From a virus (lineage: Duplodnaviria > Heunggongvirae > Uroviricota > Caudoviricetes), in IMG/VR virus record IMGVR_UViG_2695420523_000025, positions 1 to 10,856 of that record: a DNA stretch of 10,856 nucleotides. The stretch is one strand, 5' to 3'. Below the pieces are notes generated by a model. That model had not been told where the DNA came from, ran no database searches, and worked only from the letters and a program-made list of their open reading frames with translations. Each line of letters opens with the position of its first letter. The stretch's first letter is position 1. Positions 1 through 10,856 of the stretch are shown one piece after another. A program made the position numbers and the translations under genes.

Positions 1-861
1 CCTGTCCTGATTGATGTGAACGGCGTTCCGCTTCGTGAGAGTCTCAGCTACAACGGGGGCGGCGCAGGATTTGGCGGGCAAATGGCGGAGTGGTTGCCAC
101 CGGCGCAGAGTGTCGATGCGGCCCTGCTGCCCGCGTTGCGTCTGGGGAATGCCCGGGCAGATGATCTGGTGCGCAATAACGGAATAGCGGCTAATGCGGT
201 GGCCCTGCATAAGGATCACATTGTCGGGCATATGTTTCTGATCAGCTACCGTCTGAACTGGCGCTGGCTGGGGATGCGGGAGACCGCAGCAAAAAGCTTT
301 GTCGATGAGGTGGAGGCGGCCTGGTCGGAATACGCAGAAGGGATGTCTGGCGAGATCGACGTGGAAGGAAAACGCACATTTACGGAGTTTATCCGTGAAG
401 GTGTTGGCGTTCATGCGTTTAACGGCGAAATCTTTGTGCAGCCGGTCTGGGATACGGAAACCACGCAGTTATTCCGTACGCGTTTTAAAGCCGTGAGTCC
501 GAAACGGGTGGACACGCCAGGACACGGTATGGGGAACCGTTTTCTGCGGGCCGGGGTGGAGGTCGATCGATATGGCCGTGCCGTTGCGTACCATATCTGT
601 GAGGATGATTTTCCGTTCTCCGGGAGTGGACGATGGGAACGGATCCCGCGTGAACTTCCCACCGGGCGTCCGGCCATGCTGCATATTTTCGAGCCGGTGG
701 AGGACGGGCAGACCCGTGGGGCCAATCAGTTTTACAGCGTCATGGAACGGCTGAAGATGCTCGATTCCCTGCAGGCAACACAGCTTCAGTCGGCCATAGT
801 GAAGGCGATTTATGTCTATCATCTCACCGTAGTTGCCCGCATCGTTCGCCAACTCCACTGA
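1..861 (+). CDS. Phage portal protein, lambda gpB family; 5' end lies off-window and the 3' part appears replaced near nt 813, so likely a disrupted gene
   Basis: The frame is open from nt 1 (GTG at 16 is only the first start the ORF finder met). The translation carries blocks I recognise from lambda-family portals: YNGGGAGFGGQ, SVDAALLP, GNARADDLVRNNG, HKDHIVG, FEPVEDGQTRGANQFYSVME, TQLQSAIVKA. Recognisable similarity ends about 15 codons before the stop. Lambda-family portals are about 500-530 aa, whereas this ORF would be about 300 aa. Confidence 0.8.
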   Translation, partial: PVLIDVNGVPLRESLSYNGGGAGFGGQMAEWLPPAQSVDAALLPALRLGNARADDLVRNNGIAANAVALHKDHIVGHMFLISYRLNWRWLGMRETAAKSFVDEVEAAWSEYAEGMSGEIDVEGKRTFTEFIREGVGVHAFNGEIFVQPVWDTETTQLFRTRFKAVSPKRVDTPGHGMGNRFLRAGVEVDRYGRAVAYHICEDDFPFSGSGRWERIPRELPTGRPAMLHIFEPVEDGQTRGANQFYSVMERLKMLDSLQATQLQSAIVKAIYVYHLTVVARIVRQLH

Positions 862-937
862 AACCCTTGCTGCGTCTGGAATGTCGTTTTCCATGCTTTT
901 GATGACCGTTCATCACCCTTCCAGTTTTTCGCGGTTT

Positions 938-991
938 TGTGTATTGCAATGTGTATTGCAAATTGGCGATCGGGATGGGTGTGTATTGCAA
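938..991 (+). repeat. Three direct copies of TGTGTATTGCAA (938-949, 950-961, 980-991) just upstream of int; candidate integrase arm-type or autoregulatory sites within the att arm
   Basis: Three exact 12-bp copies read directly, two in tandem and a third 18 bp later, ending 19 bp before the int start codon. Confidence 0.55.
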
Positions 992-1009
992 ATCTCTTGA
1001 GGGCTTTTA

Positions 1010-2251
1010 ATGGCTATTGAAAACAAACTCAGTGACAAACTGTTAAAGAGTCTTGTCGGAAAACGGCAGGACAAACAAAAAACAATAGCGGATGGGCGCG
1101 GGTTGTCTGTGCGTGTAAGCATGGTTGGGGGGATCAGCTTTGTTTTTTACTATCGTCTTGGTGGCAGGGAATCCCCTCCGGTATGGCTTACACTTGGTCG
1201 CTATCCTGACATGTCTCTTGCAACGGCTAGGCGCATGCGTGATCAGTGCCGTGAATGGCTGGCTGAAAATCTGGACCCCCGCAGGCAAATAAAACTTGCT
1301 GCCGAAAAAACTATGCAACCAGTGACCGTAAGGGATGCGCTGTTTTACTGGTACGACAATCACGCCACAACAGCCAGAAAAGAGCATGAATATTTAATAA
1401 AACGATTTGAAAAGCATATCTTCCCCTATATCGGTGATATGGCTATAGAACAGTGCAAATTACACACATGGCTTACCGTCTTTGACAGGATCAAAAAAAA
1501 TGCGCCTGTTATGTCTGGTGCAATTTTTCTTGATATCAAACAGGCGTTGCGTTTTTGTCGCGTCAGGCAATACATCGCGTGCGATCCCTTTGGAGATATT
1601 AACGTAAGTTATGTCGGGCGCTCATCCGGTATAAGGGATCGCGTTCTTAATATCAATGAAACCGCTGATGTATGGTCTTATGCTTACGGTAATAATTTGC
1701 TAACTCTGTCATCAATATATAACCGAAGAATAATGGTTATCTGCCTGGTGTTTGGTTGCCGACAGCAGGAGGCGAGGCTATCCACCTGGGACGAATGGGA
1801 TTTAAAAAACTGGGTATGGACAGTCCCAAAAGAGCACAGCAAAAACAAGGAGGCTATAGTAAGGCCTGTTCCTGACGGAATAAAACAATGGATCGTTAAT
1901 CTTTACGCAGAAACAAAAAATCGCGGTTATGTTGTCGGTTGTGCTTTGCAAAGGGCGACAATAACAGGGGCTGCAAACAGAATATGCAGGCGTCTTGGTC
2001 ATGATACTAATGGCTTGTGGTGCATACATGATTTCAGGCGCACATTTTCCACTACGCTTAATGATATGGGGGCGGATCCTTATATTGTCGAACTTCTTTT
2101 AGGTCATAAAGTGAAAGGGGTTGCTGGTGTTTACAATAAAAGCAGGCATATAAAGAAAAAACTTGAGGTGCTTAATATGTGGGTTAATTACCTTAATACG
2201 ATAGCAGGATTTAACAACAACGTTATCGAGCTTAATAAAGAGGTGGTGTGA
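1010..2251 (+). CDS. int: Tyrosine site-specific integrase, P4-like family
   Basis: 413-aa ORF with RBS GAGGG about 7 nt upstream. N-terminal arm-binding-type region (GRGLSVRVSMVGGISFVFYYRLGG...LTLGRYPDMSLATAR). C-terminal catalytic region with HDFRRTF, LLGH and the tyrosine in GVYNKS. AT-richer than the portal fragment. Confidence 0.93.
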   Translation: MAIENKLSDKLLKSLVGKRQDKQKTIADGRGLSVRVSMVGGISFVFYYRLGGRESPPVWLTLGRYPDMSLATARRMRDQCREWLAENLDPRRQIKLAAEKTMQPVTVRDALFYWYDNHATTARKEHEYLIKRFEKHIFPYIGDMAIEQCKLHTWLTVFDRIKKNAPVMSGAIFLDIKQALRFCRVRQYIACDPFGDINVSYVGRSSGIRDRVLNINETADVWSYAYGNNLLTLSSIYNRRIMVICLVFGCRQQEARLSTWDEWDLKNWVWTVPKEHSKNKEAIVRPVPDGIKQWIVNLYAETKNRGYVVGCALQRATITGAANRICRRLGHDTNGLWCIHDFRRTFSTTLNDMGADPYIVELLLGHKVKGVAGVYNKSRHIKKKLEVLNMWVNYLNTIAGFNNNVIELNKEVV

Positions 2252-2252
2252 T

Positions 2253-2510
2253 ATGGCAATTTATTCTCTTGTTGATGAAAACGATTTGCGCACAATGAAG
2301 GACATTGATCGGTTCATTCGTGAAAAAGAGTGCATAGCACTTACCACGCTGGCAAACTCAACACGCTGGAAAATGGAGCAGGCAGGTAAATTCCCGCGAC
2401 GTATCAAGATCGGTGAACGTGCTGCAGGGTATCGACTTTCAGAGGTTCAGGCATGGATCCGTGGTGAGTGGCATCCTGGATGGAAACCTGGAAAAACAAA
2501 ACAGCAATAA
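2253..2510 (+). CDS. alpA: AlpA-family (Phage_AlpA) helix-turn-helix regulator / excisionase-like protein
   Basis: 85-aa ORF starting 1 nt after the int stop (TGAtATG) with RBS AAGAGGTGG. The core LTTLANSTRWKMEQAGKFPRRIKIGERAAGYRLSEVQAWI matches the AlpA/Xis pattern. Confidence 0.85.
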   Translation: MAIYSLVDENDLRTMKDIDRFIREKECIALTTLANSTRWKMEQAGKFPRRIKIGERAAGYRLSEVQAWIRGEWHPGWKPGKTKQQ

Positions 2511-2523
2511 CCAGTAAATAATG

Positions 2524-2546
2524 CCCCTCATCACGAGGGGTTTTTT
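2524..2546 (+). terminator. Intrinsic terminator closing the int-alpA unit
   Basis: Stem CCCCTC (2524-2529), loop ATCAC, stem GAGGGG (2535-2540), then TTTTTT (2541-2546). Confidence 0.65.
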
Positions 2547-2566
2547 GTCTATAAGGTAAAAACGCG

Positions 2567-3145
2567 ATGAATAAAAATATTGCCGTGACGGGCAAGGGGT
2601 ACGCTCGTCCAGTGAAAAAATTCTGCGATATTCGTGATCTCGTCGTTCTGCGCTTTGATAGTGTGAACGTTCGTGTGGTGTATCTGAACGGCGATCCGTG
2701 GTTTGTTGCAAAAGATGTTTGTGCTGCGCTGGAACTAACCAATTCGCGTACGGCGTTGCAGATGCTTGATGATGATGAAAAGGGAGTAAATTTAACTTAC
2801 ACCCCAGGAGGAAATCAGAATATGAGAATTATCTCTGAGTCAGGTTTCTACAAACTAATAGCCCGCAGCCGCAAAGCAACGACGCCTGGCACATTTGCTC
2901 ATCGTTTCAGTAACTGGGTATTCAGAAATGTGATACCAGGTATCAGAAAAACGGGGACTTATGGTATCCCGTGGGGTGCATTACAGGATTTTTCCCGCCG
3001 TAAAGAGCAATATCAAATAAGTGCCAGCGAGAAGGGGAGGGAGCTACAGGCATGTAAGCGCAAAAAGCGTGAGCTGGAGGAAGAAGAAAAAACGCTGATA
3101 CGTGAATATCAGCCTGAGTTTTACTTTGGTAACCGCATTCAGTGA
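2567..3145 (+). CDS. Bro-N domain protein (antirepressor-like) with a charged coiled-coil C-terminus
   Basis: 192-aa ORF. The core VVYLNGDPWFVAKDVCAALELTNSRTALQMLDDDEKG is typical of the Bro-N fold. C-terminal KRKKRELEEEEKTLIREYQ is predicted helical. It starts only 20 nt after the terminator T-tract, so its promoter is unclear. Confidence 0.7.
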   Translation: MNKNIAVTGKGYARPVKKFCDIRDLVVLRFDSVNVRVVYLNGDPWFVAKDVCAALELTNSRTALQMLDDDEKGVNLTYTPGGNQNMRIISESGFYKLIARSRKATTPGTFAHRFSNWVFRNVIPGIRKTGTYGIPWGALQDFSRRKEQYQISASEKGRELQACKRKKRELEEEEKTLIREYQPEFYFGNRIQ

Positions 3146-3154
3146 CAAAACAAA

Positions 3155-3175
3155 GGCGACCGCAAAAGGGTCGCC
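3155..3175. terminator. GC hairpin between the convergent Bro-N and minus-strand genes; possible terminator, better placed for minus-strand transcripts
   Basis: GGCGACC (3155-3161), loop of 7 nt, GGTCGCC (3169-3175). No T-run follows on the + strand; the minus strand reads TTTGTTTTG after the stem. Confidence 0.35.
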
Positions 3176-3241
3176 AGTGGGAACAAGGGAAAACAAAAGC
3201 ATCACCAACAATGCCACATTTGCGGCTGGTGGGCAATGTGA

Positions 3242-3421
3242 TCAGTCAGATTTGGTTCGTTCCAAGGTTTGCAACGAGAGCTTTTTCCTGTGCTCTTTAA
3301 GGAATTTCTCAAGAGCAAACGAACAAGGTGCGAATCTTTCTGATTCATGTTCATGCGCTATATTTTTGCGTCGTCTCTTACGAGTTGGTGATGGTGTTTT
3401 GGTTGATTCTGTGTCGCTCAT
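3242..3421 (-). CDS. Small basic hypothetical protein (59 aa), absent from the ORF track
   Basis: Manually translated from the minus strand: MSDTESTKTPSPTRKRRRKNIAHEHESERFAPCSFALEKFLKEHRKKLSLQTLERTKSD, with stop TGA at 3244-3242. AGGA lies 7 nt upstream of the ATG. It sits 57 nt downstream of the RHH-like gene on the same strand. Confidence 0.3.
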   Translation of the reverse strand: MSDTESTKTPSPTRKRRRKNIAHEHESERFAPCSFALEKFLKEHRKKLSLQTLERTKSD

Positions 3422-3478
3422 GGTGCTGTCCTGTAAAGCAATGCGCCTGCGTTCCTCAAACTATGGCGCTGATAGTGG

Positions 3479-3784
3479 CTATTCCTGCTCTTTGACCTTG
3501 CGTCGCTGGAGTTCTTCACGCGCGACGGTGACGAGTTGCCCGATCTCCTCGGCGGCTTTGACTCCGATTTTTTCCACCTGCGCTAGGGCATCGAGCGAAG
3601 AAACCAGGAGGTTTTCTCCGCTTCCTTCTGCCTGGCGGCGGGCGATTTCACCGCGCATGGCGGTTACTATGAATCCGGCGTTGCTTTCACCGTCCAGTTT
3701 TACGGATTCCATGCCTTCAATAACATCATGCGGGATCCGAGCTGTCAGTGATTGTGATTTTGCGTTTTTTGAACCTGTAGCCAT
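3479..3784 (-). CDS. Ribbon-helix-helix-like DNA-binding protein; candidate repressor of the divergent rightward operon
   Basis: The N-terminus KSQSLTARIPHDVIEGMESVKLDGESNAGFIVTAMRGEIARR has the RHH beta-strand plus two helices pattern, followed by a helical tail. I prefer the ATG at 3784 (RBS GAGAGGA 6 nt upstream) over the ORF-track TTG at 3799. It is divergent from a region with palindromic operator-like sites. Confidence 0.6.
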   Translation of the reverse strand: MATGSKNAKSQSLTARIPHDVIEGMESVKLDGESNAGFIVTAMRGEIARRQAEGSGENLLVSSLDALAQVEKIGVKAAEEIGQLVTVAREELQRRKVKEQE

Positions 3785-3805
3785 CTGTAATCCTCTCAAT
3801 GAAAG

Positions 3806-3900
3806 TGTAAGACAATATACACATAAAAAGTCTTACATAAAAGCATTGACATGTAAGCCACCTATAAATAAAGTTACTTACACCTTGTTAATACAAGGTG
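3806..3900. promoter_or_regulatory. Divergent promoter/operator region with TGTAAG/CTTACA half-sites, a sigma70-like rightward promoter and a 7-bp-stem palindrome
   Basis: Half-sites TGTAAG at 3806-3811 and 3852-3857, inverted partners CTTACA at 3832-3837 and 3877-3882. TTGACA at 3846-3851 with TAAAGT 17 bp downstream at 3869-3874 (rightward). On the minus strand TATATT is a candidate -10 for the RHH gene. Palindrome CACCTTG-N6-CAAGGTG at 3881-3900. Confidence 0.45.
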
Positions 3901-3980
3901 CAGAAACGACGAAACCCCGCACTGTAGGAGCAGTAACGGGGCTTCTAACCACCAACGATAGCAAGATTATCGAGGCAGCT

Positions 3981-4184
3981 ATGAGAAATTATACCATACA
4001 CCCGCAAGGGCGGGACTCGTACAACCTGAATAAATACATCTGGCGTTTTATCGCCCTGAGCACCGCACAACCGCGCGTGATTCACATCGTGGCCACCAGC
4101 GAACAGGAAGCACGCCAGCAATCCCCGGCTGGCTGCGTGATGGTATTCGCCGCCCGTATTCGTCAGGGGGTGTGCCATGCCTGA
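3981..4184 (+). CDS. Small hypothetical protein (67 aa), first gene of the rightward operon
   Basis: ATG at 3981 with GAGG 5 nt upstream, in frame with the stop at 4182-4184, which overlaps the start of the next gene by 8 nt. It is the only plausible part of the long low-complexity ORF 3102..4184. Confidence 0.45.
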   Translation: MRNYTIHPQGRDSYNLNKYIWRFIALSTAQPRVIHIVATSEQEARQQSPAGCVMVFAARIRQGVCHA

Positions 4185-4497
4185 TATGTCAAATTACCAG
4201 TACCTGATTAATCCGCATTTTAACTGTGAGCATGATATTGCTAAAAAGGTTTATTCCGCTGCTGATGGGGCTACTGACAATATATCAATGGCTGTTGCGT
4301 CAATTGGTAGCCTGATGTGGCATGCGTCAGAAAATGAGGACTATGACGAAAAGGCCATGCGCATTGATATGGGTAATATCGGTTTGTTACTGGCAATGCT
4401 TGGGCAGTTTGATATTTCGTTACGGTGCACCATTGAAAATGCCACAGATGCATTAAATGCCATAAAGAAAGCGAATACTGATTCAAATCGGGGATAA
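4177..4497 (+). CDS. Hypothetical protein (106 aa)
   Basis: ATG at 4177 with RBS AGGGGG 6 nt upstream. Overlaps the preceding stop. No recognisable motif. Confidence 0.6.
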   Translation: MPDMSNYQYLINPHFNCEHDIAKKVYSAADGATDNISMAVASIGSLMWHASENEDYDEKAMRIDMGNIGLLLAMLGQFDISLRCTIENATDALNAIKKANTDSNRG

Positions 4498-4503
4498 ATA
4501 ATC

Positions 4504-4803
4504 ATGAGAACATATTTATCTGGCTTGACTGCCAGCGGTTATGCACACCCCAAAATTATCCCCGGCGCTATTTATCTGGATAAGAACGGTAACAGAGTAA
4601 CGGTAAAAGAGCTGATGTTTGACCGTGTGTATTTTATTCGTGATGGCTATTCATTTCATAGTTCGCTGAACGTGGAGATCTTTATTAGCAGATTCAGGCG
4701 GGAAATCCCGCTTTCCAGAAAAAACCATGTGTCACGTGTGAATGTGGATAAAAAACTACAGGAACTGAAAAACATGATTGCCGCGTGGAGAGAGCAGAAA
4801 TGA
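4504..4803 (+). CDS. Hypothetical protein (99 aa)
   Basis: ATG at 4504, 7 nt after the previous stop. Its stop TGA (4801-4803) overlaps the primase ATG (4800-4802). No recognisable motif. Confidence 0.6.
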   Translation: MRTYLSGLTASGYAHPKIIPGAIYLDKNGNRVTVKELMFDRVYFIRDGYSFHSSLNVEIFISRFRREIPLSRKNHVSRVNVDKKLQELKNMIAAWREQK

Positions 4804-6617
4804 AAAAAGCGCCAAATTTAAAACACCAGCCGCGTGACAAAATGACGGAAGTCATCATTTTTGCGGGTAGTGATGCGTGGGCACATGCGAAGCAGTGGCA
4901 GGAACAGGACGGGCGACTGGCTGGCGATAACGTGCCTCCTGTCTGGCTTGGAGAGCAACAACTTGCCGAACTGGACAACCTGCAAATCGTACCGGACGGA
5001 CGCTATCGCGTGCGTCTCTATCAGGCGGGGTTATTGCGTCCGGGGCTTGTTAATACCATCGGGCAGAAACTGGCAGCGGCAGGTGTCAGGGATGCTGATT
5101 ATTACTCTGAAGGAATGCACAGCCAGAAACGGGAGAACTGGCGCGAATATCTGGAACGTGAACGGGCAGAGCTGGCGGAAAAGAAAAAGGTAGTTGAACT
5201 GCCTGTAAAGAAAAAAGAGCGGGTAAAAGACGATAACGCTTCATCACTGGCGCTTAACCAGATGGGAGCAAGTCAACGCGGCGAAGTTCTCCTGGCACAT
5301 TATGGCGGTGAACTGGCGATTCATGCTGACTCTGACACTGTTCACCATTACAACGGCGTTGTATGGGAGCCAGTACAGGATAAAGAATTACAGCGAGCTA
5401 TGGCACAGATTTTCATTGATGCGGAGATCAGCTATTCGCAGAACGCCATTAAATCGGCGGTCGATACCATGAAGTTAAGTTTGCCTGTTATGGGGAATAC
5501 AGCCCGTAACCTGATTGGATTCAGTAACGGGGTATTTGATACCAGAACAGGTAATTTTCGGGAGCATAACAAAAACGACTGGTTGTTAATTGCCAGTGAA
5601 TTACCTTTCAGCCCACCAGCAGAGGGGGAAACGCTGGCAACACATGCGCCGAATTTCTGGAAGTGGTTACGCCGTTCGGTGGCTGAGAATGACCGCAAGG
5701 CGGATCGCGTACTGGCTGCATTATTCATGGTGCTGGCGAACCGGTACGACTGGCAGTTATTCATTGAGGTAACAGGTCCAGGGGGAAGTGGTAAAAGCGT
5801 GATGGCGGAGATTTGCACCATGCTGGCGGGTAAGGCCAACACAGTATCGGCAAGCATGAAGGCGCTGGAAGATGCAAGGGAACGCGCGTTAGTGGTTGGC
5901 TTTTCGCTGATTATCATGCCGGATATGACCCGCTACGCTGGTGATGGGGCAGGAATTAAGGCCATTACAGGCGGTGACAAGGTGGCAATTGACCCGAAAC
6001 ACAAAGCCCCCTACTCAACGCGTATTCCGGCAGTAGTGCTGGCGGTTAACAATAACGCCATGTCATTCAGTGACCGCAGCGGGGGGATCTCACGTCGTCG
6101 GGTGATATTCAATTTTTCGGAAGTTGTACCGGAGAACGAACGCGATCCAATGCTGGCGGAAAAAATAGAAGGTGAGCTGGCGGTAGTGATTCGCCATCTG
6201 CTTACACGGTTTGCTGACCAGGACGAAGCCAGACGCCTGTTATATGAGCAGCAGAAATCTGAAGAAGCACTGGCGATAAAGCGAGAGGGGGATTCGCTGG
6301 TGGACTTCTGCGGCTATCTCATGGCGTCGGTAATGTGTGATGGCCTGTTAGTGGGTAATGCTGAAATTGTGCCATTCAGCCCACGCAGGTATCTCTATCA
6401 TGCCTATCTGGCTTATATGAGGGCACATGGGTTTGGTAAACCTGTAACACTGACGCGCTTCGGTAAAGATATGCCGGGGGCAATGGCGGAATATGGCAGG
6501 GAGTATATGAAACGGAAAACGAAGCACGGTTTGCGTTCAAACGTGACACTGACGGAGGAATCAGAAGACTGGATGCCATCATGTGTATCGGTCACTAATG
6601 ACGATAGCAAAAATTAA
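4800..6617 (+). CDS. Replication primase/helicase, P4 alpha-like (N-terminal primase-type region plus SF3/D5-type NTPase)
   Basis: Long ORF with Walker A GPGGSGKS and a downstream hydrophobic stretch ending in D (SLIIMPDM, Walker B-like). Start taken at ATG 4800 (RBS GGAGAGAG), but GTG 4785 and ATG 4842 are alternatives. An iteron array follows immediately. Confidence 0.9.
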   Translation: MKKAPNLKHQPRDKMTEVIIFAGSDAWAHAKQWQEQDGRLAGDNVPPVWLGEQQLAELDNLQIVPDGRYRVRLYQAGLLRPGLVNTIGQKLAAAGVRDADYYSEGMHSQKRENWREYLERERAELAEKKKVVELPVKKKERVKDDNASSLALNQMGASQRGEVLLAHYGGELAIHADSDTVHHYNGVVWEPVQDKELQRAMAQIFIDAEISYSQNAIKSAVDTMKLSLPVMGNTARNLIGFSNGVFDTRTGNFREHNKNDWLLIASELPFSPPAEGETLATHAPNFWKWLRRSVAENDRKADRVLAALFMVLANRYDWQLFIEVTGPGGSGKSVMAEICTMLAGKANTVSASMKALEDARERALVVGFSLIIMPDMTRYAGDGAGIKAITGGDKVAIDPKHKAPYSTRIPAVVLAVNNNAMSFSDRSGGISRRRVIFNFSEVVPENERDPMLAEKIEGELAVVIRHLLTRFADQDEARRLLYEQQKSEEALAIKREGDSLVDFCGYLMASVMCDGLLVGNAEIVPFSPRRYLYHAYLAYMRAHGFGKPVTLTRFGKDMPGAMAEYGREYMKRKTKHGLRSNVTLTEESEDWMPSCVSVTNDDSKN

Positions 6618-6630
6618 ACTTATGGAATAA

Positions 6631-6853
6631 CTGTTCACCACTGTTCACCCTGTCATAAATATCTTTTGTATCAGTATGTTATAGGGTGAACAGTTATTTA
6701 TGAACTGTTCACCAAACTATTCACTGTTCACCTTTTTGATTGTTTATTGAGCTTCAAGGGTGAACAGTGGTGAACAGTTGGTGAATAGTTTTTGTGAAAC
6801 TGTTCACCCCTTAACATTATGAATAAAAAGTTAAAATATCAAAAGGTGAACAG
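6631..6853. repeat. Iteron array, putative origin of replication of the element
   Basis: Exact CTGTTCACC at 6631, 6641, 6705, 6724 and 6800. Exact inverse GGTGAACAG at 6685, 6759, 6769 and 6845. Degenerate GGTGAATAG at 6780. Tandem copies have 10-11 bp periodicity. Two inverted pairs have 11-bp AT-rich spacers (6685-6713 and 6780-6808). The surroundings are AT-rich and directly downstream of the primase gene. Confidence 0.75.
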
Positions 6854-6904
6854 GTGAAGGGTTAAAACGCAAAAATTTTAATTTACTGCTGTGAGATAAA
6901 GCCT

Positions 6905-7150
6905 ATGACAGCGAAGCACACAAAAAAATCACAATCGCACGCCCTTGATTTGACGGAACACTGGTTAAGGGTGTCGATAAAAATCATCGACCGCAACGCC
7001 GGGGAAGGATATGCGAAAGCACATCCCGAACTGATTAGCTCATTCATGACAACGGCAGCTGCAAACTTTGCCACGCTGACAGAACGGGAGATTGCCGAAG
7101 CGGAACAGGTGACAACCATCAACGTTAAAACCGGAGAGCAGACAGCATGA
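6905..7150 (+). CDS. Hypothetical protein (81 aa), translationally coupled to the SSB-like gene
   Basis: ATG at 6905. Its stop TGA (7148-7150) overlaps the downstream ATG (7147-7149). No recognisable motif. Confidence 0.55.
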   Translation: MTAKHTKKSQSHALDLTEHWLRVSIKIIDRNAGEGYAKAHPELISSFMTTAAANFATLTEREIAEAEQVTTINVKTGEQTA

Positions 7151-7569
7151 CAGCACAGATAGCGGCTTACGGGCGGCTGGTGGCTGACCCGCAGTTAAAG
7201 ACCACCAGCAAGGGTACACAAATGACGATGGCGAGTATGGCGGTCCCACTTCCGTGCAGCCAGGCAGATGACGGAACGGCGACGATGTGGTTATCCGTCC
7301 TGGCGTTTGGCAGACAGGCCGAAGCACTGGCAAAGCACCGCAAGGGTGAACTCCTGAGCGTGGCGGGTAACATGCAGGTGAGCCAGTGGACCGGACAGAA
7401 CGGGGAGACGCGGCAGGGCTGGCAGGTTATCGCAGACAGCGTAATCAGTGCGAGAACGGCGCGACCGGGCGGCAAAAAAGGCCAACAGGGGCAGGCTACT
7501 GATGCACTGAGCAGAGCAAAACAACAGGCGGGAAATGATGATCCGTACGGGGATAACATACCGTTTTAA
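7147..7569 (+). CDS. ssb: Single-stranded DNA-binding protein (SSB family) with acidic C-terminal tip ending IPF
   Basis: 140-aa OB-fold-like N-terminus (IAAYGRLVADPQLK...WLSVLAFGRQAEALAKHRKGELLSVAGNMQVSQWTGQNGETRQGWQVIADSV) that parallels E. coli SSB block by block. Gly/Gln-rich linker. C-terminus DDPYGDNIPF compared with SSB DFDDDIPF. Confidence 0.8.
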   Translation: MTAQIAAYGRLVADPQLKTTSKGTQMTMASMAVPLPCSQADDGTATMWLSVLAFGRQAEALAKHRKGELLSVAGNMQVSQWTGQNGETRQGWQVIADSVISARTARPGGKKGQQGQATDALSRAKQQAGNDDPYGDNIPF

Positions 7570-7585
7570 GCAACGAGTAACAGAA

Positions 7586-7607
7586 GCCGGAGCAATCCGG
7601 CTTTTTT
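7586..7607 (+). terminator. Intrinsic terminator after the SSB-like gene
   Basis: GCCGGA (7586-7591), loop GCAA, TCCGGC (7596-7601), then TTTTTT (7602-7607). Confidence 0.7.
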
Positions 7608-7609
7608 AT

Positions 7610-7681
7610 GGGTCCTCCCGGTGTAGTGACCTGCCACGGGGCGGGAGCGTCGCGGAAAAAGGCTGGTTTTTGCATTTTCAT
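7610..7681 (+). repeat. Copy 1 of a 72-bp GC-rich intergenic module; candidate shared regulatory element
   Basis: GGGTCCTCCCGGTG...CTGCCACGGGGCGGGAGCG.CGCGGAAAAAGGCT.GTTTTTGCATTTTCAT. 66 of 72 positions match the copy at 10146-10217 by manual alignment. It begins 3 nt after the terminator T-run. Confidence 0.6.
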
Positions 7682-7868
7682 GGCGGCGGCAGCATGTGTA
7701 GTAATTTATTGATAATTAAAAGTTATTTCTGTTTTCACCTGTACAATATTTTTTTCTCCCTGTCATTAGACCAGTTTGCAATTAATTGAAATATATAAAT
7801 AAATCTGTTTTTCACCTGCCAGGTGGAGTTGCCTGTGTCAAAACGTGTTCAGATGGCGGGATATTTAT

Positions 7869-7892
7869 GCCGGATTTTATCCGGCTTTTTTG
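7869..7892 (+). terminator. Intrinsic terminator inside the intergenic region upstream of the capsid operon
   Basis: GCCGGA (7869-7874), loop TTTTA, TCCGGC (7880-7885), then TTTTTT (7886-7891). The stem is the same as in the 7586 terminator. Confidence 0.6.
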
Positions 7893-7993
7893 TGTCTGAA
7901 TCTCATTAATCTATTTTTATGATAGAAATATGTTTATCTACCACTTTTATCGATCAATAATGTGCACAGTTTAGTCAGTAAGAGGAAGTTACT

Positions 7994-8203
7994 GTGAGTT
8001 GTATTAATGACCTGAACACGGGCGATATCAGGGGTGGTTCCGTTCATCTGGATGCGCAGACCGTTATGCGCCTTAAGCAGTACAGGATCGACCATATAAA
8101 TCATCATCCTGACAAACCATTACCAGGTGTGGCGCAGATTGTCAGGCATGCCGTAAACGCCTGGCTTAATCAGAGTGGTTTTGCATCGGAGAGTGAGCAA
8201 TGA
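7994..8203 (+). CDS. Small hypothetical protein (69 aa), translationally coupled to the protease-capsid gene
   Basis: GTG start with strong RBS AAGAGGAAG 7 nt upstream. Its stop TGA (8201-8203) overlaps the ATG at 8200-8202. A weak RHH-like pattern (MRLKQYRIDH...VAQIVRHAVNAWL) is not conclusive. Confidence 0.5.
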   Translation: MSCINDLNTGDIRGGSVHLDAQTVMRLKQYRIDHINHHPDKPLPGVAQIVRHAVNAWLNQSGFASESEQ

Positions 8204-10113
8204 ATCACTGGTACACCATTAAGGCGGCGGATGTTCGCGGAGCGGCGGATATATCTATCTATGAGGAGATTGGCGGCTTCGGTGTTACTGCAAAGCAGTT
8301 CGCGGAAGACCTGAAAGCCCTTGGCGATGTTTCACATATCAATCTGAGGATCCATTCACCAGGTGGTGATGTGTTTGAAGGCATCGCCATCTATAACCTG
8401 CTACGGAATCATCCGGCAGACATTACGGTTTATATCGATGGTGTTGCGGCTTCAATGGCTTCGGTTGTCGCAATGGCTGGCGATCGTGTTGTTATGCCGG
8501 AGAACGCCATGATGATGATCCATAAACCGTGGGGTATCTCTGGCGGAAATGCTGGCGATATGCGTGATTATGCTGATTTGCTGGATAAGGTGGAAACCGT
8601 GTTAATCCCTGCTTATGCCAGAAAAACGGGCAAATCAGCACAGGAAATTACCGCCATGCTGGAGGATGAAACCTGGATGGATGGGAAAGAATGCCTTAAG
8701 CACGGTTTTGCTGATGAATTGTTGCCATCCGTCAGAGCAATGGCGCGAATTGAATCGAAACGCACAGGAGATTTTTTACATATGCCGGAAACCATTAAAG
8801 GAATGATTACACCGCCACAGGGAGCGGCAAATATTGCTGGTAATGAACAGAAGCGCATCAATGGAATAAGTGAAGTGTTTAGCTTGTTCGGCAGTCGTTA
8901 CGACGGGATCAAAATGGCGTGTCTGGAAGATGCATCATGTACACCGGAAATGGCCCGTGAAAAGCTGTTGAACGAGCTGGGGCGCGAGTCCACGCCATCC
9001 AATAAAAATACCCCGCCTCATATCTATGCCGGAAACGGAAACATAACAGGTGATGCAATTCGTCAGGGGCTTTATTCCCGTCTTGGGTATGAACGCCCTG
9101 AACGAGGCAACCCTTACGCGATGATGAGCCTTTTTGAAATGGCCCAGGCATCACTGGTTGATCGTGGTATCACTGTGAGCGGTTTTATTAATCGCTCGCA
9201 GGTTGTTAATGCGGCTTTTACACACAGCAGCAGCGATTTTTCTCATATTCTGGCTGGTGGCGCTGAAAAATCAGTACTGAAAGGCTGGCAGGACAGCGGC
9301 GAAACGTTCCAGAAATGGACGCGTACCGGTTCGCTTTCAAACTTTCATGAAGCAAAGCGCGTTGGTCTGAATGGTTTTTCAAAGCTGGATAAAGTACCGG
9401 AAGGCGCGGAATATAAATACATCACCACTAGCGATAAAGGTGTACCTATTGCGCTGGCCACGTACGGGAATATTTTTTCCGTTACCCGTCAGGCCATTAT
9501 CAACGATGACCTGACCCAGTTAACTACAATCCCCATGGCGATGGGACGCGCAGCTGCCAGAACAGTTGGCAATCTGGTTTATCTCCTGTTAACCAGCAAC
9601 GGCAAGTTTACGGATGGTAAAGCGTTATTCCATGCCGATCATAAAAATCTTATTGCGAAGGATATGGACATGGAGGGGCTTAACGAAGCCCGTAAGCTGA
9701 TGCGCCTCCAGGAAGACGCTAACGGCGATTCGCTGAATATTACCCCCGCATTTGTCCTGGTCCCCGCCGCGCTGGAGTCTGCCGCACATCGCGCCATTCT
9801 GTCATCGTCATCACTCTTTCCGGTTGATGGCGTGGGCACTATCAATCAGAACCCCGGCATCATTAACGTGGTGAAAGATATGGCGGAGGTAATCGTTGAG
9901 CCACGTCTTGATAAAGCCAATAACAAGGAGTGGTATGTGGCAGCGGCGAAGGGTATGGACACGATAGAGGTCGCTTATCTTGATGGTATTGATACGCCAT
10001 ATCTTGAGGAGCAGGAGGGCTTTACTGTTGATGGCGTCGCCTGGAAGGTGCGCATAGATGCAGGTGTCGCGGCCCTCGACTATCGCGGATTACTGAAATC
10101 GAGTGGAGCATGA
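8200..10113 (+). CDS. Fusion protein: N-terminal ClpP-like (S14-type) prohead serine protease joined to a C-terminal putative major capsid domain
   Basis: N-terminal 200 aa carry ClpP signatures HSPGGDVFEGIAIYNLL, catalytic-serine context GVAASMASVVAMAGD and histidine context MMMIHKPWG. The remaining roughly 430 aa have the size and position expected of a scaffold plus capsid region. The capsid assignment is from context and general resemblance, not a verified alignment. Confidence 0.8.
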   Translation: MNHWYTIKAADVRGAADISIYEEIGGFGVTAKQFAEDLKALGDVSHINLRIHSPGGDVFEGIAIYNLLRNHPADITVYIDGVAASMASVVAMAGDRVVMPENAMMMIHKPWGISGGNAGDMRDYADLLDKVETVLIPAYARKTGKSAQEITAMLEDETWMDGKECLKHGFADELLPSVRAMARIESKRTGDFLHMPETIKGMITPPQGAANIAGNEQKRINGISEVFSLFGSRYDGIKMACLEDASCTPEMAREKLLNELGRESTPSNKNTPPHIYAGNGNITGDAIRQGLYSRLGYERPERGNPYAMMSLFEMAQASLVDRGITVSGFINRSQVVNAAFTHSSSDFSHILAGGAEKSVLKGWQDSGETFQKWTRTGSLSNFHEAKRVGLNGFSKLDKVPEGAEYKYITTSDKGVPIALATYGNIFSVTRQAIINDDLTQLTTIPMAMGRAAARTVGNLVYLLLTSNGKFTDGKALFHADHKNLIAKDMDMEGLNEARKLMRLQEDANGDSLNITPAFVLVPAALESAAHRAILSSSSLFPVDGVGTINQNPGIINVVKDMAEVIVEPRLDKANNKEWYVAAAKGMDTIEVAYLDGIDTPYLEEQEGFTVDGVAWKVRIDAGVAALDYRGLLKSSGA

Positions 10114-10120
10114 CAACAAG

Positions 10121-10143
10121 GGCGGCGATAGCCGCCTTTTTTT
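10121..10143 (+). terminator. Intrinsic terminator after the protease-capsid gene
   Basis: GGCGGC (10121-10126), loop GATA, GCCGCC (10131-10136), then TTTTTTT (10137-10143). Confidence 0.7.
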
Positions 10144-10145
10144 AC

Positions 10146-10217
10146 GGGTCCTCCCGGTGGGGTGGTCTGCCACGGGGCGGGAGCGGCGCGGAAAAAGGCT
10201 AGTTTTTGCATTTTCAT
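10146..10217 (+). repeat. Copy 2 of the 72-bp GC-rich intergenic module
   Basis: Matches 7610-7681 at 66 of 72 positions. It has the same placement, 2 nt after a terminator T-run and upstream of the next operon. Confidence 0.6.
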
Positions 10218-10370
10218 TCGTCATCATCATCTTTCTATTGTATTGAATTTTAAGTATTTTTATTTTTGGCATGTTAATTTTGCTTGTTTTATGCTCAACA
10301 TATAGCGCATTTTTTGACCTCTTCTGAAAGTTGTTCGCAAGATGCATGTTTAAAACATTCTGGAGCGGGT

Positions 10371-10856
10371 ATGGATCGAGAACTGAAAAATCTGATGCTG
10401 AACATTAATCAACTGGCGGCGATAGCGGGAATATGTCGTCAGACTGCGGCGGCAAGGCTGAAAAACATCCAGCCAGCCGGAGGGCATGACAAGCTAAAAC
10501 TCTATCGGGTGACTGACATTCTGACCTGTTTTCTTGATCTTCCCGTTCCGGCATCACTGGAAGAAATGGAGCCACATGACCGTAAGGCCTGGTATCAGTC
10601 CGAACGTGAGCGCCTCAGGTTCGAACAGGAAACGGCGCAACTCATACCCGCCGATGATGTGCGAAAAGAGATGGCTATATGGGGGGAAATCGTAAGCGAG
10701 GAACTGGCAAAACTCCCCAATATTCTGGCACGTGATGCCGGGCTTAAACCGATGGCAGTAAACAGAGTGCAGTCAATTATTGACGATTTGCGTAATCAGA
10801 TTATCAGCCGGATGGTAAAAAATGACGTAGTGAATGAGGTCGCAAAACAGGCATGA
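10371..10856 (+). CDS. Nu1-like small terminase subunit or packaging-specificity DNA-binding protein
   Basis: Start taken at ATG 10371 (RBS GGAG 5 nt upstream) rather than the ORF-track 10284. N-terminal HTH-like LNINQLAAIAGICRQTAAARLKN, then a LY...ERERLRFEQE region and a C-terminal helical region, with an overall layout like lambda Nu1. The stop is at the last 3 nt of the window. Confidence 0.55.
   Translation: MDRELKNLMLNINQLAAIAGICRQTAAARLKNIQPAGGHDKLKLYRVTDILTCFLDLPVPASLEEMEPHDRKAWYQSERERLRFEQETAQLIPADDVRKEMAIWGEIVSEELAKLPNILARDAGLKPMAVNRVQSIIDDLRNQIISRMVKNDVVNEVAKQA

What the first reader, a model, noticed from the sequence alone, without database searches (positions are those of the whole stretch)
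1..1012. Satellite element apparently inserted inside a lambdoid prophage portal gene
The portal-like frame is intact from the window edge to about nt 813, then reads 15 unrelated codons and stops at 861. Directly downstream are three TGTGTATTGCAA repeats and a P4-type integrase. The missing portal C-terminus is not in the window. If integration is site-specific, the element interrupts an essential morphogenesis gene of a potential helper phage, and excision could restore it, much like a phage regulatory switch. That would be an unusual parasite-within-helper arrangement.
Basis: partly seen in the sequence, partly recalled or inferred. Interest (0 to 1): 0.85.

Follow-up and report, generated by a model that had tools for sequence, protein, structure and literature searches.

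The report
Known satellite embedded in prophage portal gene

Summary
Window 1-813 encodes residues 5-275 of a 530-aa lambda-family portal. Homology to intact portals stops at nt 814. Fifteen foreign codons and a stop (859-861) follow, then three exact TGTGTATTGCAA copies (938, 950, 980), then int-alpA-Bro.

In 13 related E. coli loci with the same or a near-identical integrase (12 of 13 identical), the 3' half of the portal gene lies directly to the right of a 10.4-11.8 kb element. The core AARGCSAT is repeated at both ends. Simulated excision in three of these loci restores a 530-aa portal.

[quoted passage not shown] That paper gives the identity block "aaggcgat", the tgTGTATTGCantgTGTATTGCa arm motif about 132 bp from the core, and an attL sequence that reads identical by eye to window 795-910.

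One window-specific point stands out. The element is a mosaic:
- 815-3474 is the standard HE-PICI.
- 3196-10856 is 99.99% identical to a PICI normally found between cspD and clpS.
- Its cos-like sites, terS-like gene and capsid genes match a different phage head type.

The right end lies outside the window and I could not find the source contig. Whether this particular copy can excise and restore the portal gene is therefore inferred, not shown.

The parts
1..813 (+). 5' part of a lambda-family (gpB-like) portal gene of the surrounding prophage, residues 5-275 of 530
   Evidence: PF05136 at E=2.6e-63. 99.3% nucleotide identity over nt 1-814 to intact prophage portals. No amino-acid difference from the L002 portal up to residue 273.
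802..814 (+). attL core. The identity block AAGGCGAT (802-809) extends to AAGGCGAT[T]TATG. The T at 810 comes from the element; attB and attR have G there.
   Evidence: Comparison of attL, attR and attB in L001, L003, L004 and L002. The published identity block for site B:Phage_portal_2:241 is 'aaggcgat'.
815..861 (+). Element-derived tail of the truncated portal ORF: 15 foreign codons and a TGA stop
   Evidence: By eye, the same as the published attL sequence of Eco10269.11.
938..961 (+). Doubled arm-type motif TGTGTATTGCAA-TGTGTATTGCAA in the P' arm of attP, starting 132 bp from the core centre
   Evidence: Exact matches. Published HE-PICI-specific motif tgTGTATTGCantgTGTATTGCa lies 132 +/- 2 bp downstream of the attP centre. 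Same positions in all 13 relatives, plus a second doubled copy upstream of attR.
980..991 (+). Third, single copy of TGTGTATTGCAA
   Evidence: Conserved at the same offset in all 13 relatives. Not mentioned in the text of the paper that I read.
1010..2251 (+). Tyrosine integrase of the HE-PICI clade (subclade for site B:Phage_portal_2:241)
   Evidence: Pfam domains. The exact 413-aa protein is present in L006 (CP006834.2) and L014 (CP015912.1), both listed in the paper's table as B_Phage_portal_2_241 elements.
2253..2510 (+). AlpA-family regulator and putative excisionase
   Evidence: PF05930 at E=5.4e-14.
2567..3145 (+). Bro-N domain protein (the 'Bro zone')
   Evidence: PF02498 at E=4.9e-20.
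3196..3474 (.). Crossover zone of 279 bp that is identical in both parental element types. To its left the window follows the standard HE-PICI; to its right it follows the cspD/clpS-site PICI.
   Evidence: Mismatch maps against L001/L005/L006/L013 and against L017/L021.
3479..3784 (-). YlcI/YnfO-family gene
   Evidence: Exact protein match to annotated genes in L015 and L017.
4504..4803 (+). DUF4222 protein
   Evidence: PF13973.
4800..6617 (+). Primase/D5-type helicase, the replication protein
   Evidence: D5_N, DUF5906 and Pox_D5 domains. The exact 605-aa protein is found in PICIs at other att sites.
6629..6863 (.). Putative origin of replication: about 11 copies of the iteron CTGTTCACC in both orientations
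   Evidence: Its position downstream of the primase gene is as described for Gram-negative PICIs (introduction of PMC10111431).
7147..7569 (+). Single-stranded DNA-binding protein
   Evidence: Annotated homologues and an exact protein match.
7602..7681 (+). cos-like sequence, copy 1 (contains GGGCGGGAGCGT)
   Evidence: The same sequence lies upstream of the DUF1441 gene of a prophage in L016.
8200..10113 (+). ClpP-like prohead protease fused to a major capsid protein
   Evidence: CLP_protease and Phage_capsid_4 domains.
10138..10217 (+). cos-like sequence, copy 2 (91% identical to copy 1; contains GGGCGGGAGCGG)
10371..10856 (+). DUF1441 protein, probably a small terminase subunit
   Evidence: PF07278 at E=2.4e-36. 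In L016 a DUF1441 gene sits directly upstream of the prophage large terminase gene.

Best explanation
The window shows the left junction (attL) and most of a helper-embedded phage-inducible chromosomal island (HE-PICI) of the published site group B:Phage_portal_2:241.

How it got there. The element's P4-related tyrosine integrase recombined a short core (AAGGCGAT) in its attP with the same sequence at codons 272-274 of the portal gene of a lambda-like prophage. This split the gene after residue 275 of 530. attP carries no replacement 3' end for the portal gene, so the prophage cannot make a portal while the satellite stays in place.

What happens on induction (inferred). The element points the same way as the late operon. 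No terminator-like site lies between the truncated portal ORF and int. Late transcription of the helper is therefore expected to read into int and alpA. Int, probably with AlpA as directionality factor, then excises the element. This reseals the portal gene and releases a circle that replicates from its own primase and iteron origin. The circle would then be packaged through its own cos-like site and small-terminase-like protein.

The TGTGTATTGCAA repeats are the HE-PICI-specific arm motif of attP and probably bind the integrase arm domain.

Shown here: the anatomy, the site, the motif, identity to published members, and restoration of the ORF in silico in relatives. Shown by others: timed excision of a sister element from the capsid gene after mitomycin C. 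Inferred: read-through transcription, the role of AlpA, the packaging route, and that this copy still has its proper right end.
For: - Breakpoint and truncated ORF.
- Three complete genomes share the junction, and both portal halves flank a 10.9-11.8 kb int-alpA-Bro-primase-SSB-capsid-terS element.
- The core is repeated at attL and attR, with attB intact in L002.
- All 13 loci have the N-half on the left, the C-half on the right, the core at both ends, and the motif at fixed offsets.
- Simulated excision gives a 530-aa portal.
- The exact integrase occurs in 6633 blocks of the collection, and all 10 places shown lie next to a portal fragment in a lambdoid late region.
- 65 of 5426 complete E. 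coli genomes carry this int region.
- Literature: HE-PICI concept, 14 sites, site B:Phage_portal_2:241, identity block 'aaggcgat', an attL sequence that matches the window by eye, the doubled motif at +132, and mitomycin C excision of 11capE.
- No plus-strand terminator-like site between nt 861 and 1010; the first is at 2523-2541, after alpA.
Against: - The right end (attR) is outside the window, and the source contig was not found in any collection.
- From nt 3196 on, the element is 99.99% identical to a PICI of the cspD/clpS site. That PICI's right arm lacks the TGTATTGC motif. If this copy arose by a single crossover, its right end would not be a matching attR.
- No excision experiment exists for a portal-site element. 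In the published test of the capsid-site element no virions were recovered.
- The cos-like sites and terS-like gene of this copy match a different head type than the lambda-type prophages that carry this portal allele. The surrounding prophage may therefore not be the packaging helper.
Confidence: 0.88

Rival explanations
1. Locked hybrid. A single homologous crossover in the 279-bp shared stretch (3196-3474) joined a resident HE-PICI to a resident cspD/clpS PICI on the same chromosome, giving an inversion or deletion. The left end is then the portal attL, but the right end is the clpS-side attR. Neither integrase could excise the hybrid, so the portal gene would be split for good.
For: Both halves are almost identical to common parental elements, with one SNP each, which suggests a very recent event. 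The L017-type right arm has no TGTATTGC motif. The join is absent from 5426 complete genomes. L007 shows that portal halves of different alleles (98.9% versus 62.8% identity to the reference) can flank one HE-PICI, so recombination through these elements does rearrange flanks.
Against: The same DUF1441 + 93-aa late module occurs in PICIs at three chromosomal sites: cspD/clpS, the mug-rpoD region and a site next to thiamine-kinase-like genes. It also occurs in a terminase-embedded HE-PICI. In each case the last 130-400 bp diverge between elements at different sites. Module swaps therefore normally keep the integrase-matched arm. The 93-aa gene is about 90% identical between the two parents and offers a second crossover point.
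Confidence: 0.15
2. Assembly chimera. The source genome holds both a standard portal-embedded HE-PICI and a cspD/clpS PICI, and the assembler joined them across the 279-bp exact repeat.
For: The switch lies exactly within a stretch that is identical in both parents. The combination is unique among all collections searched.
Against: Nothing in the window tests this. Mosaic PICIs with swapped integration zones are common in complete genomes, so the structure is biologically plausible.
Confidence: 0.1
3. Deletion scar or naturally short portal. The portal gene was truncated by deletion and an unrelated island happens to lie next to it, or portals of this family end here.
For: Only that the 3' half is absent from the window.
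Against: Intact homologues are 530 aa. The breakpoint coincides to the base with a published att core. All 13 relatives keep the 3' half on the other side of the element.
Confidence: 0.02

Closest known systems
HE-PICIs of site group B:Phage_portal_2:241 (Tommasini, Mageeney & Williams 2023, NAR Genom Bioinform 5:lqad036, PMC10111431), e.g. Eco4623.11 in CP006834.2 and Eco4028.11 in CP015912.1
   Same: Identical 413-aa integrase. Same attL sequence, core AAGGCGAT and doubled TGTATTGC motif at +132. Same int-alpA-Bro zone (one SNP in 815-3474). Same orientation as the late operon.
   Different: The replication and late zones (3475-10856) are replaced by those of a cspD/clpS-site PICI. Instead of a lambda E-type capsid gene, a D-type decoration gene, a Nu1-type terS and the lambda cosN, this copy has a ClpP-capsid fusion, a DUF1441 gene and cos-like GGGCGGGAGCGT. 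attR was not observed.
Eco567.11capE, the founding HE-PICI, in capsid gene E (site E:Phage_cap_E:80)
   Same: Same integrase clade, same architecture, and the same logic of a late gene interrupted with no replacement sequence. It is the only member with experimental data: after mitomycin C the composite excises and replicates, and the satellite then excises at 2 h.
   Different: A different target gene and core. 11capE lacks terS. No experiment exists for the portal site.
Classical Gram-negative PICIs (e.g. EcCICFT073) and the cspD/clpS-site PICI in CP133106.1 (L017)
   Same: int-alpA, primase-ori and late-gene layout, and a size of about 10-11 kb. Window 3196-10856 is 99.99% identical to L017.
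   Different: These integrate next to chromosomal genes, apart from the helper, so they interact with it only in trans. Their att arms lack the TGTATTGC motif.
Capsid-forming PICIs (cf-PICIs)
   Same: They carry their own capsid-related and small-terminase-like genes.
   Different: The donor element type ends after DUF1441 and a 93-aa gene. It has no portal, large terminase or head-tail connector genes of its own, so the defining full capsid-and-packaging set is missing.
Regulated gene integrity / phage regulatory switches ('active lysogeny': phi10403S in Listeria comK, skin in sigK, SPbeta in spsM). From my own knowledge and the discussion of PMC10111431.
   Same: Reversible, integrase-mediated interruption of a gene that becomes functional again on excision.
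   Different: The interrupted gene belongs to another mobile element, a prophage, and the benefit goes to the satellite rather than to the cell.
Satellite phage P4
   Same: Related integrase family with an Arm-DNA-bind_3 N-terminal domain. The HE-PICI clade branches within a PICI/P4 group.
   Different: No Sid, Psu or Delta genes. P4 has a tRNA target and P2-type helpers.

Membership tests
HE-PICI (helper-embedded PICI), site group B:Phage_portal_2:241 | Integrase belongs to the HE-PICI clade and to the subclade of this site | tested here: met
   The 413-aa protein is identical to that of L006 (CP006834.2) and L014 (CP015912.1), which the paper's Supplementary File 1 lists as B_Phage_portal_2_241. 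I built no tree.
HE-PICI (helper-embedded PICI), site group B:Phage_portal_2:241 | attL lies inside a prophage late gene (a portal of Pfam Phage_portal_2, near profile position 241), with identity block aaggcgat and the same orientation as the gene | tested here: met
   The Pfam alignment ends at profile position 242. The core AAGGCGAT is at 802-809. The published attL of Eco10269.11 matches window 795-910 by eye. The element's main genes (int, alpA, Bro, primase, SSB, capsid fusion, DUF1441) are on the plus strand, like the portal gene.
HE-PICI (helper-embedded PICI), site group B:Phage_portal_2:241 | attR with the same core, followed by the 3' part of the late gene | not testable with these tools
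   The window ends at 10856, an estimated 1.1 kb before the expected attR. The source contig was not found. The feature is met in 13 of 13 relatives.
HE-PICI (helper-embedded PICI), site group B:Phage_portal_2:241 | Doubled motif tgTGTATTGCantgTGTATTGCa 132 +/- 2 bp downstream of the attP centre, and a second copy about 81 bp upstream | tested here: inconclusive
   The downstream copy is met: 938-961, with the core centre near 805.5. The upstream copy lies in the unseen right arm. It is present in all 13 relatives and absent from the donor PICI L017.
HE-PICI (helper-embedded PICI), site group B:Phage_portal_2:241 | Four ordered zones: integration (int, alpA), Bro, replication (primase, ori, SSB), late | tested here: met
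   Pfam domains and gene order. Iterons.
HE-PICI (helper-embedded PICI), site group B:Phage_portal_2:241 | Surrounding element is a helper prophage | tested here: inconclusive
   Only the portal fragment is in the window. The same portal allele (99.3%) sits in a full lambda-type late operon in L002. All relatives lie in lambdoid late regions, some of them degraded by IS elements.
HE-PICI (helper-embedded PICI), site group B:Phage_portal_2:241 | Inducible excision that restores the late gene | not testable with these tools
   In silico excision restores a 530-aa ORF in L001, L003 and L004. Experimental data exist only for 11capE at the capsid site.
cf-PICI (capsid-forming PICI) | Own portal, large terminase, head-tail connector and adaptor genes in addition to capsid genes | tested here: not met
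   None is present in the window. The 99.99%-identical donor element ends after DUF1441 and a 93-aa gene.
P4-like satellite | Psu, Sid, Delta, alpha-type primase and Ash/Epsilon components | tested here: not met
   The Pfam scan of ten window proteins shows none of these. Only the integrase family is shared.

The most novel reading that the evidence does not exclude
This copy may be a very recent natural recombinant that uncouples the two roles of a 'helper'. It is embedded in, and blocks, a lambda-head-type prophage by splitting that prophage's portal gene. Its cos-like sites (GGGCGGGAGCGT), DUF1441 terS-like gene and ClpP-capsid fusion are those of a different phage head type. The satellite would then use one prophage as landing pad, induction sensor and victim, while being packaged by, or redirecting the terminase of, another phage. 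Alternatively, if it arose from a single crossover, it would act as a permanent lock on the portal gene.
Probability: 0.3. Interest if true: 0.45.

Novelty: already known. Interest (0 to 1): 0.25.

Why it matters
The biology is attractive. A parasite of a virus sits inside an essential assembly gene of that virus, so the virus cannot build particles until the parasite has left. The parasite is also copied and probably transcribed along with its host. However, this was described in 2022-2023 with nearly 500 examples, including this site, this integrase and these repeats. The window therefore adds no new principle.

Its modest added value is a concrete case of module swapping between a helper-embedded and an ordinary PICI across a 279-bp shared stretch. 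In this case the packaging module does not seem to match the prophage that houses the element. If real, it would be a natural test of whether the embedding prophage must also be the packaging helper.

Tried and rejected
Search for the source contig, to see the right end. All attempts failed:
- Integrase protein against GTDB representative genomes: 72 pattern matches, none a relative.
- attL pattern in IMG/VR: 17 contigs, all standard HE-PICIs, none with the window's right part.
- A gapped pattern specific for the mosaic join in IMG/VR, GTDB representatives and JGI metagenomes: no hits.
- Look-ups with the primase and DUF1441 proteins returned only PICIs at other sites.
- Megablast of nt 2700-4000 and of 815-10856 found no complete E. 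coli genome with the same join.

Other negative results:
- Rfam scan of the window at E<=1 gave only chance-level hits. No C4/isrK-type immunity RNA was found.
- The promoter scan found no more sites than in shuffled sequence, so I draw nothing from it.

Rejected ideas:
- cf-PICI identity, because it has no portal, large terminase or connector genes of its own.
- The 360-aa ORF at 3102-4184 as a real gene. It overlaps the YlcI-family gene on the opposite strand, and only its last 67 codons correspond to the annotated Icd-like gene.
Full report
**1. The observation**

Frame 1 of nt 1-861 is open. It matches the lambda-family portal profile PF05136 at E=2.6e-63, but only over profile positions 2-242 of 354.

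Against an uninterrupted 530-aa portal from a lambdoid prophage (L002, strain 14EC047) the window shows:
- no amino-acid difference from residue 5 to 273;
- M274I, then Y275;
- 15 unrelated codons and a stop at 859-861.

At the DNA level, 1915 of 5426 complete E. coli genomes match the query. The 27 listed hits that lack the element all end at nt 814, and only three genomes continue across the junction.

TGTGTATTGCAA occurs exactly at 938, 950 and 980 and nowhere else in the window.

The next gene (1010-2251) is a tyrosine integrase with the Arm-DNA-bind_3 N-terminal domain. It is followed by alpA and a Bro-N gene. The portal C-terminal half is not in the window.

**2. What it is**

In the three genomes that share the junction (EC28, strain 48 and VL7S7) the portal gene is annotated as two pseudogene halves. 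Between them lies a 10.9-11.8 kb block of int, alpA, Bro, small genes, DUF4222, a primase or RepA-type helicase, SSB, capsid, decoration and terS genes. The rest of a lambda-type late operon follows: S49 protease, D, E, FI and the tail genes.

Comparison of attL and attR with an empty site gives the repeated core AARGCSAT, extended to ...AT[T/G]TATG. The T sits at attL, while attR and attB have G. This places strand exchange inside AARGCSAT.

Joining the flanks at the core restores a 530-aa portal ORF, 96-99% identical to the intact one, in all three genomes.

A look-up of the exact integrase protein found it in 6633 blocks of the public collection. All ten places shown lie next to a portal fragment in a lambdoid late region. 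Twelve of the 13 loci encode the identical integrase; L003 does not.

In all 13 loci taken together:
- the portal N-half is on the left and the C-half on the right;
- the core is at both ends;
- TGTATTGC copies sit at fixed offsets: three near attL and a doubled copy upstream of attR.

Most of these portals are only about 60% identical in protein to the window's allele. The integrase therefore recognises a conserved spot in divergent portals. Sixty-five of 5426 complete E. coli genomes (1.2%) carry this int region.

**3. It is already published**

A citation in de Sousa et al. [quoted passage not shown] That paper reports the following:
- 491 HE-PICIs at 14 sites in nine lambda-cognate late genes, including three sites in the portal gene B.
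- Site B:Phage_portal_2:241 has the identity block "aaggcgat".
- The supplementary attL of Eco10269.11, read by eye, matches window 795-910.
- Two of my loci, CP006834.2 and CP015912.1, are listed there as members.
- A doubled motif tgTGTATTGCantgTGTATTGCa, unique to HE-PICIs, lies 132 +/- 2 bp downstream and about 81 bp upstream of the attP centre. The window's doubled copy starts 132 bp from the core centre.
- For the founding element 11capE, in capsid gene E, mitomycin C first induces excision and replication of the prophage-satellite composite. The satellite then excises (42-98% at 2-3 h), precisely.
- The authors call this "regulated gene integrity" serving the satellite. They propose passive replication and late read-through transcription as cis benefits.

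**4. Mechanism for this window**

Shown here:
- the att anatomy and the arm motif;
- co-orientation with the portal gene;
- PICI zones, with an iteron-rich origin at 6629-6863;
- no terminator-like site on the plus strand between the truncated portal ORF and int. The first is at 2523-2541, after alpA.

Inferred:
- helper late transcription enters int and alpA;
- Int with AlpA excises the element and reseals portal codons 272-275;
- the circle replicates from its own primase and origin, and is packaged from a cos-like site.

**5. What is particular to this copy**

The element is a two-parent mosaic. Nt 815-3474 differ from the standard portal-site HE-PICI by one SNP, at 1228. Nt 3196-10856 differ by one base in 7661 from a PICI that normally sits between cspD and clpS (L017, CP133106.1). 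The 279-bp overlap (3196-3474) is identical in both parents and marks the crossover.

No complete E. coli genome has this join. It is also absent from IMG/VR, the GTDB representative genomes and the JGI metagenomes.

The late zone carries:
- a ClpP-capsid fusion;
- a DUF1441 gene, which occupies the terS position in a prophage in L016;
- two 80-nt direct repeats, 91% identical, that contain cosN-like GGGCGGGAGCGT and GGGCGGGAGCGG.

The same sequence lies upstream of the DUF1441 gene of the L016 prophage. In contrast, the standard portal-site HE-PICI (L001) and its lambda-type helper both carry GGGCGGCGACCT. So does L002, which has the window's portal allele. From general knowledge, GGGCGGCGACCT is the lambda cohesive-end sequence. 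The packaging module therefore seems matched to a different head type than the prophage that houses the element.

**6. The caveat**

The donor PICI's right arm lacks the TGTATTGC motif. If the mosaic arose from a single crossover between two resident elements, or from a misassembly across the 279-bp repeat, the right end would be at clpS. The portal gene could then not be restored.

Against this, the same DUF1441 + 93-aa late module occurs in PICIs at three chromosomal sites and in a terminase-embedded HE-PICI. In each case the last 130-400 bp diverge between elements at different sites. The 93-aa gene is also about 90% identical between the two parents, which provides a second crossover point.

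I put the properly bounded mosaic at about 0.7, a locked hybrid at about 0.15 and an assembly chimera at about 0.1.

**7. Verdict**

The feature is a member of a described family at a described site, so its novelty is low. Only the mosaic and the possible helper mismatch deserve a brief follow-up.

Noticed in passing
window 3196-3474 (and 815-10856 as a whole): The element is a two-parent mosaic. The left part equals the standard portal-site HE-PICI (one SNP, at 1228). The right part equals a cspD/clpS-site PICI (one mismatch in 7661 nt). The switch lies inside a 279-bp stretch that is identical in both parents. The join was not found in any collection searched.
   Followed up: yes
window 7602-7681 and 10138-10217: Two 80-nt direct repeats, 91% identical, each just after a terminator-like hairpin. 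They contain cosN-like GGGCGGGAGCGT and GGGCGGGAGCGG and flank the ClpP-capsid gene. The same sequence lies upstream of the DUF1441 (terS-position) gene of a prophage in L016. Standard portal-site HE-PICIs and their lambda-type helpers instead carry GGGCGGCGACCT. Why there are two copies is unexplained.
   Followed up: partly
window 6629-6863: About 11 copies of the iteron CTGTTCACC / GGTGAACAG in both orientations, in an AT-rich stretch downstream of the primase gene. This is the presumed origin of replication.
   Followed up: partly
window 980-991; also L001 20980-20991 and all 13 relatives: A third, single TGTGTATTGCAA copy lies 30 nt after the start of the second half of the doubled motif and is conserved in every relative examined. 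The text of the published description that I read mentions only the doubled copies.
   Followed up: partly
L007 (BNIZ01000001.1) 8980-9804 and 20703-21242: The portal halves flanking this HE-PICI belong to different alleles. The N-half is 98.9% identical to the L002-type portal and the C-half only 62.8%. Excision would create a chimeric portal. This suggests that prophages recombine through the shared embedded satellite.
   Followed up: no
L016 (CP018840.1) 6360-19755: Another helper-embedded PICI, this one inside the large terminase gene of a prophage with a DUF1441 terS and a ClpP-capsid fusion. Its late zone mirrors the helper's own genes and is 98% identical to the window's late zone.
   Followed up: partly
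L049/L050 (CP099865.1) about 4650718-4683764: Two PICI copies with the same late module lie in tandem, each with an IS3-family transposase gene in the replication zone.
   Followed up: no
window 3102-4184 (+): A 360-aa ORF with no Pfam hit that overlaps the YlcI-family gene on the opposite strand. Gene callers sometimes report it in relatives (331-348 aa). Only its last 67 codons (3981-4184) correspond to the annotated Icd-like gene, so it is probably not a real long gene.
   Followed up: partly
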